Shown here piece by piece: positions 6,284 through 6,686 of a DNA stretch of 11,317 nt; the stretch's first letter is position 1; the number at the start of each line of letters is the position of its first letter. The notes below the pieces were generated by a model. It searched no databases and had not been told where the DNA came from. It worked only from the letters and a program-made list of their open reading frames with translations. The stretch lies in the UHGV virus genome UHGV-0229837; one strand, 5' to 3'. The stretch is from a virus. The position numbers and the translations under genes are program-made.

Positions 6284-6619
6284 TTATGGACTTTGTTGTT
6301 TTAGTCCATAAGGACATATTTGCAGAGTGCAACGGTTATTAAAGCATTCATTCAATACGTTATCTGTATTTGTAGGGCATTCCTGGCTGTTTTTGATTAA
6401 ATTCCAGAATGTTTTATTGAATGGTACTACGTTGTAAATGGTTACAGGTAGCACTTTGTTATTGAGCATGATACCTGTGTGAGTCAGTGTAAATATACTT
6501 TCAGGAGGTAAGAAAGCATCCGATTGATACCAGATTATTAATTTTACTTTACTCCATATGACTGAAAAAGATATTCCGCATGATGGCTGGATAACTGTAT
6601 CAATCACAATCCACTTCAT
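6284..6619 (-). CDS. Hypothetical AT-rich antisense cargo (moron) protein (111 aa)
   Basis: ATG at 6619 preceded on the minus strand by AAGGAAG at 6-nt spacing and a sigma70-like promoter; a 111-codon ORF is unexpected by chance in DNA this AT-rich. No family recognised. Confidence 0.5.
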
Positions 6620-6659
6620 TTAGCTTCCTTGTTTATGCCTTGCTGGTGATGTTCTGAAA

Positions 6660-6686
6660 AGTATAAATGATATTTTTGAATGTAAA
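6660..6686 (-). promoter_or_regulatory. Putative promoter of the antisense cargo gene (-35 TTTACA, 15-bp spacer, -10 TATACT on the minus strand)
   Basis: Reverse complement of 6660-6686; the hexamers are near consensus but the spacer is short at 15 bp. Confidence 0.35.

What the first reader, a model, noticed from the sequence alone, without database searches (positions are those of the whole stretch)
6284..6686. Antisense AT-rich gene with its own promoter and ribosome-binding site, embedded against the late operon
A 111-codon ORF on the minus strand in about 35 percent GC DNA is unlikely by chance. It has an AAGGAAG SD at 6-nt spacing and a near-consensus TTTACA/TATACT promoter upstream on its own strand. 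Antisense orientation and autonomous signals are hallmarks of a moron expressed in the lysogen. The product ([36 protein letters not shown]...) has no motif I recognise.
Basis: partly seen in the sequence, partly recalled or inferred. Interest (0 to 1): 0.6.

Follow-up and report, generated by a model that had tools for sequence, protein, structure and literature searches.

The report
Prophage copy of anti-adaptor gene iraL
The minus-strand ORF is a real gene that is already known: iraL, a prophage-borne "moron" whose small protein blocks the adaptor RssB so that the stress sigma factor RpoS escapes degradation.

Summary
ORF 6284-6619 (-) has 111 codons and 34.5% GC, with an AAGGAAG ribosome-binding site and TTTACA/TATACT promoter hexamers. 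Only 0.64% of local shuffles give an ORF this long.

The gene is not unknown. It is iraL, 110/111 aa and 334/336 nt identical to iraL of uropathogenic E. coli CFT073, in the same prophage synteny. It passes the NCBIfam IraM model (161 bits, cutoff 121) and matches the IraM chain of PDB 8TWD (E = 8e-32).

Published 5'RACE on CFT073 iraL gives an mRNA 5' end that maps to window base 6652. Published work shows IraL binds RssB and stabilises RpoS in growing cells.

Relatives lacking the gene delimit a 627-bp AT-rich cassette (6252-6878). It lies in the Q-to-lysis slot of a lambdoid prophage, the slot that holds stx in Shiga-toxin phages. Diverged family members occupy the same slot in the same antisense orientation, with dN/dS 0.10-0.16.

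Possibly new side observations are a conserved PhoP-box-like repeat upstream, mostly unannotated variants next to stx2, and four invariant C-terminal cysteines.

The parts
6284..6619 (-). iraL coding sequence (111 aa, stop at 6284-6286); an RssB anti-adaptor of the IraM/IraL family
   Evidence: ORF. It is 110/111 aa and 334/336 nt identical to CFT073 iraL. NCBIfam NF007393 scores 161.4 bits against a cutoff of 121. PDB 8TWD IraM chain matches at E = 8.4e-32. RefSeq product WP_001323611.1 is named 'anti-adapter protein IraM'.
6624..6630 (-). Shine-Dalgarno AAGGAAG, ending 4 nt before the ATG
   Evidence: Read from the sequence. CFT073 has AAGGAAA at the same place.
6652..6652 (-). Inferred transcription start (A), giving a 33-nt 5'UTR
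   Evidence: The CFT073 5'RACE end is ACATCACCAGCAAGGCATAAACAAGGAAACCA. It aligns to window 6652 onwards. This is an inference by homology and was not measured in this strain.
6660..6665 (-). -10 hexamer TATACT, 7 nt upstream of the inferred start
   Evidence: TATACT, TATGAT or TATAAT is conserved at this aligned position in all diverged family members except K-12 iraM.
6681..6686 (-). -35 hexamer TTTACA, with a 15-nt spacer to the -10
   Evidence: identical in CFT073. It is poorly conserved in the more distant variants.
6715..6731 (+). Candidate PhoP box TGTTTATTGTTTATTTA (1 mismatch), at -63 to -79 from the start, in reverse orientation; untested
   Evidence: It is the only match with at most 1 mismatch in the whole window. 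The same aligned site is a perfect box in a Stx-phage variant and has 1-2 mismatches in four others. Shuffle probability is 0.04 for at most 1 mismatch and 0.002 for a perfect match.
6252..6878 (.). The iraL cassette: a 627-bp AT-rich insert delimited by comparison with an iraL-less relative
   Evidence: Prophage L006 (strain EC9682) is collinear with the window up to 6251 and again from 6879, with unrelated 52% GC DNA in between. In L007 homology ends at 6206 and TolA-like genes fill the slot.
6069..6258 (+). Prophage sRNA STnc100, convergent with iraL. Its terminator hairpin (6228-6249) lies 34 nt beyond the iraL stop codon
   Evidence: Rfam RF02076 scores 132.4 bits (gathering score 47) over the full model length. 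The terminator has 9 pairs and a T-tail on the + strand only. The hairpin folds on both strands.
4151..4972 (+). Late-gene antiterminator Q; the start of the late operon that iraL opposes
   Evidence: Pfam Antiterm PF03589, E = 5.8e-54; RefSeq calls it 'antitermination protein'.
5053..5072 (+). Terminator-like hairpin with a T-run just downstream of Q; a candidate tR'
   Evidence: Pattern scan only. The assignment as tR' is an inference from lambdoid phage organisation.
5116..5191 (+). Phage tRNA with anticodon CAT. ARAGORN calls it Met; RefSeq annotates it tRNA-Ile, i.e. the ATA reader
   Evidence: iraL uses ATA for 5 of its 12 Ile codons (4.5% of codons), the highest share in the window.
5296..5372 (+). 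Phage tRNA-Arg (TCT); not relevant to iraL, which has no AGA or AGG codons
6868..7226 (+). Remnants of a nanS-p-type sialate esterase gene, divergent from iraL: the DUF1737 N-terminus (6868-7068) and a C-terminal fragment (7065-7226)
   Evidence: Pfam DUF1737. RefSeq flags it 'incomplete'. The 53-aa ORF matches the last 50 positions of a 634-position PHROG profile. Relatives carry a full SASA esterase here, about 1.5 kb longer.
7376..9311 (+). Lysis cassette: holin 7376-7591, YdfR/DUF1327 7596-7940, lysozyme 8284-8817, Rz 8814-9311

Best explanation
This is iraL, a lysogenic-conversion gene (moron) carried in the Q-to-lysis slot of a Qin-like lambdoid prophage.

In the lysogen it is transcribed leftward by sigma-70 RNA polymerase from its own promoter (-35 at 6686-6681, -10 at 6665-6660, start about 6652). 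The mRNA has a 33-nt leader and is translated from the AAGGAAG site.

The 111-aa product has a PmrD-like beta-barrel (residues about 1-78). It docks onto the receiver domain of the adaptor RssB, so RssB can no longer hand RpoS (sigma-S) to the ClpXP protease. RpoS therefore lasts longer and accumulates even in growing cells, raising expression of the general stress regulon in the host.

Steps shown by experiment for the 99%-identical CFT073 allele: the transcription start, the RssB interaction, and the RpoS half-life effect. Steps shown here: the identity, the conservation of the promoter and of the RssB-contact residues, and the cassette structure.

Steps inferred: + strand terminators (5053-5072 and the STnc100 terminator 6228-6249) shield iraL from convergent transcription in the lysogen. 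After induction, Q-modified polymerase would read through them and run antisense across iraL, which would shut it off.
For: Identity:
- 110/111 aa and 334/336 nt identical to CFT073 iraL.
- Same gene order: Q, tRNAs, DUF3927, iraL (antisense), DUF1737, holin.
- NCBIfam IraM model 161.4 bits, cutoff 121.
- PDB 8TWD IraM chain, E = 8e-32.
- The AlphaFold model's best PDB hits are 8twd_A, then PmrD 4hn7 and 2jso.

Promoter:
- The published 5'RACE end matches window 6652 onwards, and the -35 and -10 hexamers are identical to CFT073.
- The -10 is conserved across variants down to 59% aa identity.

Function (literature, PMC4045071):
- Deleting iraL lowers sigma-S in log phase in CFT073 and S. sonnei.
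- The sigma-S half-life drops from about 5 to about 2.5 min.
- The gene complements from its native promoter.
- IraL binds the RssB N-terminal domain in a two-hybrid assay.

Contact residues (PMC10844676, compared with the sequence):
- All five IraM residues that contact the RssB receiver domain (I4, I6, W22, K26, I42) are kept.
- The C-terminal-domain cluster carries T13S and L75I.
- The linker cluster carries H63N and I64V.
- This fits IraL binding only the N-terminal domain.

Selection and spread:
- dN/dS is 0.10-0.16 between variants.
- 1446 records have a copy at 90% nt identity or better.

Cassette: it is absent or replaced in collinear prophages and has 34.5% GC against about 50% in the flanks.
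Against: - No expression or binding data exist for this strain or for this allele (V25 instead of I25, and two changes between SD and ATG).
- The -35/-10 spacer is only 15 nt, so the promoter is not near-consensus in geometry and may need an activator.
- The 30% GC upstream region is the kind of DNA that H-NS silences.
- The hairpin after the gene has no U-tract on the iraL strand, so the gene lacks a clear terminator of its own.
- The structure model is of modest quality (mean pLDDT 64; TM 0.37-0.46 to 8TWD).
- The shielding and antisense shut-off steps are inference only.
Confidence: 0.93

Rival explanations
1. The gene is conditional rather than constitutive. Like K-12 iraM and Salmonella rssC, it would be switched on by PhoP-PhoQ (low Mg2+, acid, antimicrobial peptides), through the PhoP-box-like repeat at 6715-6731. 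It would then be largely silent otherwise. This concerns regulation only and is compatible with the RssB mechanism.
For: - The only match with at most 1 mismatch to KGTTTA-N5-KGTTTA in the window lies at -63 to -79 from the iraL start.
- The same aligned position holds a perfect box in a Stx-phage variant and boxes with 1-2 mismatches in four other variants.
- Chance is 0.04 for at most 1 mismatch and 0.002 for a perfect match, per 260 nt.
- The poor 15-nt spacer suggests dependence on an activator.
- IraM is described as the Mg2+-starvation anti-adaptor.
Against: - IraL acts in LB log phase without imposed Mg2+ limitation.
- The iraL paper mentions PhoP only in its references, so this has not been tested either way.
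- The 88% variant has a deletion over the distal half-site, and the 59% variant has no box.
- The compared sequences are homologous, so positional conservation is weak evidence.
- K-12 iraM has an unrelated promoter.
Confidence: 0.3
2. The gene is intact but inert in this particular element. The prophage is a decayed remnant, and the AT-rich cassette is silenced (for example by H-NS), so the gene contributes nothing to this host.
For: - The prophage lacks head and tail genes: a cold-shock gene and tail-fibre fragments follow Rz directly.
- The neighbouring esterase gene carries an internal deletion.
- The upstream DNA is 30% GC.
Against: - The ORF, SD and both promoter hexamers are intact and identical to the expressed CFT073 copy.
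[quoted passage not shown] The window's -35 is identical to that of CFT073.
- The exact sequence recurs at 100% identity in many genomes, and the family is under purifying selection.
Confidence: 0.1
3. The protein is a PmrD-like connector acting on a response regulator other than RssB (for example PmrA), or it serves the phage directly (for example by modulating induction), rather than stabilising RpoS.
For: - The fold is PmrD-like.
- Homologues carry precomputed Pfam PF11183 (PmrD) hits.
- The position next to stx and the lysis genes is conserved across phages with three different Q families.
Against: - The 99%-identical protein binds RssB and alters the sigma-S half-life.
- All five RssB-receiver contact residues are conserved.
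- PmrD chains are only 13-14% identical in the fold search.
- The Pfam library held here gives no PmrD hit, even at E = 10.
Confidence: 0.04
4. It is a chance ORF or pseudogene in AT-rich spacer DNA.
For: ORF length alone is only moderately improbable: 0.64% of shuffles reach it.
Against: - It passes a curated family model and matches a solved structure.
- dN/dS is 0.10-0.16.
- Full-length clusters hold 1045 and 2167 member sequences.
- A function has been shown experimentally for the near-identical allele.
Confidence: 0.01

Closest known systems
IraL of uropathogenic E. coli CFT073 (c1429; Hryckowian et al. 2014, mBio, PMC4045071)
   Same: - 110/111 aa and 334/336 nt identical.
- Identical -35 and -10 hexamers, and the same 5' leader apart from 2 nt.
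- Same prophage synteny: Q, tRNAs, DUF3927, iraL (antisense), DUF1737, holin.
- By the paper's own criterion (at least 95% identity over the whole coding region; promoter region at least 96%), this is iraL.
   Different: - V25 instead of I25.
- A instead of G at -1, and GCT instead of ACC between the SD and the ATG.
- The host prophage here has two tRNAs and no IS200, and it is truncated after Rz. The CFT073 potB prophage has three tRNAs, an IS200 and a full set of structural genes.
IraM (YcgW) of E. coli K-12, the Mg2+-starvation anti-adaptor; structure 8TWD
   Same: Same family and fold. It is 59.5% aa identical (66 of 107 aligned residues), with the N-terminal 78 residues aligning at E = 8e-32. 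The RssB-receiver contact residues are conserved, and so are the four C-terminal cysteines.
   Different: - The promoter is unrelated: no alignable upstream sequence.
- The location differs: beside e14, not in a Q-to-lysis slot.
- There are substitutions in the contacts to the RssB C-terminal domain and linker.
- IraL is reported to bind only the RssB N-terminal domain and to act in log phase.
iraM-family genes of Stx2c, Stx2a and other Stx phages (e.g. phage 2851; O157:H7 prophage in L004; variant P0005 in L009)
   Same: Same slot and same antisense orientation, directly upstream of the DUF1737/nanS-p esterase gene. They are 73-75% aa identical, and homology extends over the promoter and the STnc100-like element (window 6040-7037 at 70% nt identity).
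   Different: They lie immediately downstream of stx2B rather than of DUF3927. Their -10 is consensus TATAAT or TATGAT. Most are unannotated in the phage records, and I found no study of them in the held library.
PmrD (PDB 4HN7, 2JSO), the PhoP-induced connector protein that protects phospho-PmrA
   Same: Same small beta-barrel fold, and the same logic of a small protein binding a response-regulator receiver domain.
   Different: Only 13-14% identical in the structural alignment. The partner differs (PmrA rather than RssB), and so does the outcome (protection from dephosphorylation rather than blocking substrate delivery).
Classical lambdoid morons in the late region (stx in Stx phages; bor and lom in lambda)
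   Same: An extra gene with its own promoter and deviant base composition, inserted between conserved late-region genes, and present or absent among related phages. It occupies the same Q-to-S interval as stx (the moron concept is from my own knowledge).
   Different: It is oriented against late transcription, so unlike stx it cannot be co-expressed with the late operon. It has no clear intrinsic terminator of its own.

Membership tests
IraM/IraL anti-adaptor family (NCBIfam NF007393) | Whole-protein score above the curated cutoff of the family model | tested here: met
   161.4 bits against a cutoff of 121; E = 7.2e-48; residues 1-110 match profile positions 1-113 of 114.
IraM/IraL anti-adaptor family (NCBIfam NF007393) | N-terminal PmrD-like beta-barrel (IraM residues 1-78, PDB 8TWD) | tested here: met
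   The sequence aligns to 8TWD chain A over residues 1-78 at E = 8.4e-32. The AlphaFold model shows 7 strands plus a helix at 69-76, and its top PDB hit is 8twd_A (E = 1.5e-5), followed by PmrD. The model is only moderate (pLDDT 64, TM 0.37-0.46).
IraM/IraL anti-adaptor family (NCBIfam NF007393) | Residues that contact RssB in the IraM-RssB crystal structure | tested here: met
   Cluster I (RssB receiver domain): I4, I6, W22, K26, I42, 5 of 5 kept. Cluster II: C14, F18, W30 kept; T13S and L75I changed. Cluster III: I61, Y62 kept; H63N and I64V changed. P66 is kept. Residue list, sequence.
IraM/IraL anti-adaptor family (NCBIfam NF007393) | Binds RssB and slows ClpXP-dependent turnover of sigma-S | not testable with these tools
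   Shown experimentally for the 99%-identical CFT073 protein (PMC4045071), not for this allele.
iraL subtype (as opposed to K-12 iraM) | [quoted passage not shown] | tested here: met
   334/336 nt (99.4%) to CFT073 iraL, against 68.2% to K-12 iraM.
iraL subtype (as opposed to K-12 iraM) | The iraL promoter and upstream region are conserved (at least 96% identity to CFT073) with the mapped 5' end | tested here: met
   There are 7 differences in the 250 nt upstream of the ATG. The -35 and -10 are identical, and the 5'RACE sequence matches from window 6652.
K-12-type iraM (PhoP-dependent, beside e14) | Orthologous sequence and shared promoter and locus | tested here: not met
   59.5% aa identity. 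blastn aligns only the coding part (query positions 140-461 at about 70.6%). The upstream regions do not align and the genomic context differs.
Phage moron (autonomous extra gene in a late operon) | Present or absent between genes that are adjacent in related phages | tested here: met
   L006 is collinear up to 6251 and from 6879 without iraL. L007 carries TolA-like genes in the slot instead.
Phage moron (autonomous extra gene in a late operon) | Base composition different from the surrounding phage genes | tested here: met
   ORF GC 0.345 and GC3 0.33, against 0.46-0.54 for the Q, rusA, holin, lysozyme and Rz genes.
Phage moron (autonomous extra gene in a late operon) | Own promoter, active in the lysogen | tested here: met
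   The promoter hexamers are identical to those of the CFT073 copy, whose start was mapped in growing lysogens and which complements from this promoter. Activity in this strain was not measured.
Phage moron (autonomous extra gene in a late operon) | Own transcription terminator | tested here: inconclusive
   A strong 9-bp GC-rich hairpin lies 34 nt after the stop and folds on the iraL strand too. The T-run is on the + strand only, and the hairpin belongs to sRNA STnc100.
PmrD family (Pfam PF11183) | Match to the Pfam PmrD model | tested here: inconclusive
   Homologues carry precomputed PF11183 (PmrD) hits. hmmscan against the held Pfam-A gives no hit for this protein, K-12 IraM or the Stx2c variant, even at E = 10.

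The most novel reading that the evidence does not exclude
The prophage-borne iraL/iraM lineage may be ancestrally wired to PhoP-PhoQ. The wiring would be a reverse-oriented PhoP box about 63-79 nt upstream of the start, which is perfect in one Stx-phage variant and has 1 mismatch here.

Diverged copies that are mostly unannotated sit immediately next to stx2 in Stx2c, Stx2a and other Stx phages. Shiga-toxin and other lambdoid prophages would then give their hosts a host-signal-responsive switch for RpoS stability.

In addition, the C-terminal tail may be a metal- or redox-sensing module because of its four invariant cysteines. Structural work removed the tail, calling it less conserved and predicted to be flexible.
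Probability: 0.25. Interest if true: 0.4.

Novelty: already known. Interest (0 to 1): 0.15.

Why it matters
As it stands, this is a correct rediscovery of a characterised gene. IraL raises RpoS in growing uropathogenic E. coli and Shigella, and here it is seen in its natural setting as a phage moron.

The value of the check is mostly in tidying up:
- It defines the cassette boundaries.
- It shows that phage-oriented resources still list the family as "unknown function" (PHROG 4407) or leave it unannotated beside stx2.

[quoted passage not shown] That would be of moderate interest to people working on RpoS regulation and STEC.

Tried and rejected
- Pfam scan of the protein, at E = 0.1 and then E = 10: no hit, although homologues carry precomputed PF11183 hits. 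I did not rely on Pfam.
- Consensus promoter scan: it did not report the TTTACA/TATACT pair because the spacer is 15 nt. The sites it did report on the minus strand (6727-6699 and 6568-6541) do not fit the published 5' end, so I set them aside.
- Own intrinsic terminator for iraL: none found. The only hairpin has its T-run on the other strand.
- K-12-type iraM orthology: rejected (59.5% aa identity, unrelated promoter).
- Codon link to the phage tRNA-Arg(TCT): rejected, because iraL has no AGA or AGG codons. The ATA/tRNA-Ile link is real in numbers but could simply reflect AT richness.
- AlphaFold on a 16-sequence alignment gave only a moderate model (pLDDT 64), with the Cys-rich tail below 50. 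It says nothing about whether the tail folds.
- Literature searches for IraM together with Stx phages or nanS-p found no paper linking them. The library is incomplete, so this is not proof of novelty.
I re-ran it with alignment A2.

Full report
**1.
Its GC content is 0.345, against roughly 0.47-0.52 on either side.

In 5000 dinucleotide-preserving shuffles of 6200-6900, the longest ATG ORF averaged 53 codons, and only 0.64% of shuffles reached 111.

The sequence shows these signals:
- AAGGAAG at 6630-6624, ending 4 nt before the ATG.
- TTTACA at 6686-6681.
- TATACT at 6665-6660.

The one correction is that the hexamers are 15 nt apart, not 17. This is why the consensus scan, which accepts only 16-18 nt spacers, did not list the pair.

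The gene is antisense to everything around it. Upstream on the + strand lie DUF968, RusA, Q (4151-4972) and two tRNAs. Downstream on the + strand lie holin, YdfR, lysozyme and Rz.

**2. What it is.**
The region is 100% identical to many RefSeq E. coli chromosomes, where the ORF is annotated "anti-adapter protein IraM". It passes the curated NCBIfam IraM model (161.4 bits, cutoff 121). It also aligns to the IraM chain of the IraM-RssB crystal structure 8TWD at E = 8e-32.

More precisely it is iraL. Against CFT073 iraL (c1429) it is 110/111 aa (V25I) and 334/336 nt identical. Against K-12 IraM it is only 59.5% aa and 68% nt identical.

CFT073 carries the gene in the same order inside its potB prophage: Q, tRNAs, DUF3927, iraL (antisense), DUF1737, holin. 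By the criteria of the paper that named IraL, this is iraL. Those criteria are at least 95% identity over the whole coding region and at least 96% identity in the promoter region.

**3. The promoter call is backed by published mapping.**
Hryckowian et al. (PMC4045071) found by 5'RACE that iraL mRNA begins ACATCACCAGCAAGGCATAAACAAGGAAACCA. The window reads ACATCACCAGCAAGGCATAAACAAGGAAGCTA from base 6652.

The inferred start is therefore A6652, 7 nt downstream of TATACT, and the leader is 33 nt. That matches the "+33" boundary of the complementing clone described in the paper. Both hexamers are identical in CFT073.

A caveat is my own inference. The RACE used C-tailing, and CFT073 has GG just upstream of this end, so the true start could be 1-2 nt further upstream.

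Across family members down to 59% aa identity, the -10 stays TATACT, TATGAT or TATAAT at the same aligned position. The -35 is not conserved.

**4. It is a discrete cassette in the classical moron slot.**
An iraL-less relative (strain EC9682, L006) is collinear with the window up to 6251 and again from 6879. In between it has 716 bp of unrelated 52% GC non-coding DNA. Another relative (L007) diverges after 6206 and carries TolA-like genes there. The iraL cassette is thus 6252-6878, 627 bp.

Its left edge is the terminator hairpin 6228-6249 of the prophage sRNA STnc100 (Rfam RF02076, 132 bits, window 6069-6258, + strand). This sRNA is convergent with iraL. The hairpin has a T-run only on the + strand, so iraL has no obvious terminator of its own.

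Its right edge is the start of a DUF1737 ORF. That ORF, together with the 53-aa ORF at 7065-7226, is what remains of a nanS-p-type sialate esterase after an internal deletion of about 1.5 kb. Relatives have the full gene.

The Q-to-holin interval is the one that holds stx in Shiga-toxin phages. In O157:H7 Stx2c prophages a 73%-identical family member sits between stx2B and nanS-p, also antisense.

Further variants are all antisense between an antiterminator gene and DUF1737/nanS-p:
- an 88%-identical variant;
- a 75%-identical variant in another Stx phage;
- a 65%-identical variant in E. albertii;
- a 59%-identical variant.

Including the window's own phage, three different Q families (Pfam Antiterm, Phage_antitermQ, Phage_antiter_Q) are represented. 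The window's own prophage is a remnant: after Rz come a cold-shock gene and tail-fibre fragments.

**5. It is a gene under selection.**
Nei-Gojobori dN/dS is 0.12 against the Stx2c-phage variant and 0.16 against K-12 iraM, with dS above 1.

In the E. coli complete-genome set, 1446 records have a copy at 90% nt identity or better. All sampled copies are annotated as intact. Full-length protein clusters hold 1045 members (iraL type) and 2167 members (iraM type).

Four deposited phage records (partial genomes named vB_EcoS-*) carry a 99%-identical gene.

**6. How it most likely works.**
Published experiments on the near-identical allele show the following:
- Deleting iraL lowers sigma-S in log phase in CFT073 and Shigella sonnei.
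- The deletion halves the sigma-S half-life, from about 5 to about 2.5 min.
- The gene complements from its native promoter.
- IraL binds the N-terminal (receiver) domain of RssB in a two-hybrid assay.

The IraM-RssB structure shows the beta-barrel docking on the alpha4-beta5-alpha5 face of the receiver domain, where sigma-S binds. Further contacts go to the linker and the C-terminal domain.

In the window protein, all five receiver-contact residues (I4, I6, W22, K26, I42) are kept. The C-terminal-domain and linker clusters carry substitutions: T13S, L75I, H63N, I64V. This fits the report that IraL, unlike IraM, binds only the N-terminal domain.

Two further steps are inferred and were not tested:
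- In the lysogen, + strand terminators at 5053-5072 and 6228-6249 stop tRNA and sRNA transcripts before they collide with iraL.
- After induction, Q-modified polymerase would read through them and transcribe iraL in antisense.

**7. Regulation: an untested lead.**
The only match with at most one mismatch to the PhoP-box consensus in the whole window is TGTTTATTGTTTATTTA at 6715-6731. It lies 63-79 nt upstream of the start, in reverse orientation.

The same aligned site is a perfect box in the 75% Stx-phage variant. It has one mismatch in the Stx2c variant and two in three others. It is partly deleted in the 88% variant. Shuffling gives P = 0.04 for at most one mismatch and P = 0.002 for a perfect match, per 260 nt.

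K-12 IraM is the Mg2+-starvation anti-adaptor. The iraL paper did not test PhoP. Other reports note higher iraL expression in a fur mutant and after a shift to 37 C. I treat PhoP control as a hypothesis with about 0.3 probability.

**8.
iraL uses ATA for 5 of its 12 Ile codons (4.5% of all codons), the highest share in the window. It has no AGA or AGG codons.

The nearby tRNA with anticodon CAT is called Met by ARAGORN. RefSeq annotates it as tRNA-Ile, the ATA reader. The link is plausible, but AT richness alone could explain it.

**9. Comparison and verdict.**
The gene is a member of the IraM/IraL family and specifically of the iraL subtype; every testable defining feature was met. It is not the K-12 iraM orthologue.

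It behaves as a phage moron: own promoter, deviant composition, and presence/absence among related phages. Unlike stx it is oriented against late transcription and has no clear terminator of its own.

The finding is a sound rediscovery of a known, characterised gene, so novelty is "already known" and interest is low. The side observations in sections 4 and 7, together with four invariant cysteines in the C-terminal tail (C81, C92, C97, C102), are the only parts that may be new. Structural work removed that tail, describing it as less conserved and predicted to be flexible.

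Noticed in passing
window 6069-6258 (+): A full-length match to the prophage sRNA STnc100 (Rfam RF02076, 132 bits) lies convergent with iraL, and its terminator hairpin (6228-6249) is 34 nt beyond the iraL stop codon. RefSeq instead places an 'incomplete hypothetical' pseudo-CDS on the opposite strand inside it (window 6088-6213). If iraL transcripts pass the hairpin, they would be antisense to the sRNA.
   Followed up: partly
L004:7115-7438 (O157:H7 Stx2c prophage); L009:3001-3336; phage records: Diverged iraM-family genes (73-75% aa identity to the window protein) sit directly between stx2B and the nanS-p esterase gene in Stx2c, Stx2a and other Stx phages, antisense to the late operon. 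In most of the phage records shown nothing is annotated there. I found no paper in the held library linking IraM to Stx phages.
   Followed up: partly
window 6284-6376 (protein residues 81-111): The C-terminal tail has four invariant cysteines in all family members aligned (C81, C92, C97, C102; pattern CP-x9-C-x4-C-x4-CPYG). The IraM structural paper truncated this tail and calls it less conserved and predicted to be flexible, with no mention of cysteines or zinc. AlphaFold gives it pLDDT below 50. It could be a metal or redox site.
   Followed up: partly
window 6715-6731 (+): A PhoP-box-like direct repeat with 1 mismatch lies 63-79 nt upstream of the iraL start. It is positionally conserved in several diverged family members and is a perfect box in one Stx-phage variant.
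   Followed up: partly
window 6868-7226 (+): The DUF1737 ORF and the following 53-aa ORF are the two ends of a nanS-p-type sialate O-acetylesterase gene with an internal deletion of about 1.5 kb. Relatives (H114-H117, L008) keep the full gene of about 635 aa next to iraL.
   Followed up: partly
window 5116-5191 (+): ARAGORN calls this CAT-anticodon tRNA Met, but RefSeq annotates the same gene as tRNA-Ile (the ATA decoder). iraL is the most ATA-rich gene in the window (5 of 12 Ile codons).
   Followed up: partly
window 5483-5836 (+): This 117-aa ORF (the likely true start is the Met at residue 10) matches PHROG 2873 (unknown function) at E = 2e-69. It is not annotated in the RefSeq records examined. 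It uses AGA or AGG for 6 of its 11 Arg codons and lies just downstream of the phage tRNA-Arg(TCT).
   Followed up: no
L006:2725-3440 and L007:3971-4945: The same slot holds other cargo in related prophages. One has a second STnc100-like copy in 52% GC non-coding DNA. Another has two TolA-like genes, with essD, rrrD, rzpD and iss downstream.
   Followed up: partly
window 1656-1979 (+): A hok/sok type I toxin-antitoxin module: the Rfam sok RNA at 1656-1826 and a 51-aa HokD-type toxin at 1824-1979.
   Followed up: no
window 9528-11317 (+): Directly after Rz come a cspA-type thermoregulator leader with a 70-aa cold-shock gene (9673-9885), a tail-fibre repeat fragment (10443-10736) and a tail-fibre assembly gene that contains an Rfam IS009 hit (11079-11277). 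No terminase, head or tail genes are present, so the prophage is a Qin-like remnant. No complete genome in the collection matches more than 85% of the window in one place.
   Followed up: no
protein of window 6284-6619: Database inconsistencies. PHROG 4407 lists this family as 'unknown function' (E = 6e-73). Homologues carry precomputed Pfam PF11183 (PmrD) hits, but the held Pfam-A library returns nothing, even at E = 10.
   Followed up: yes
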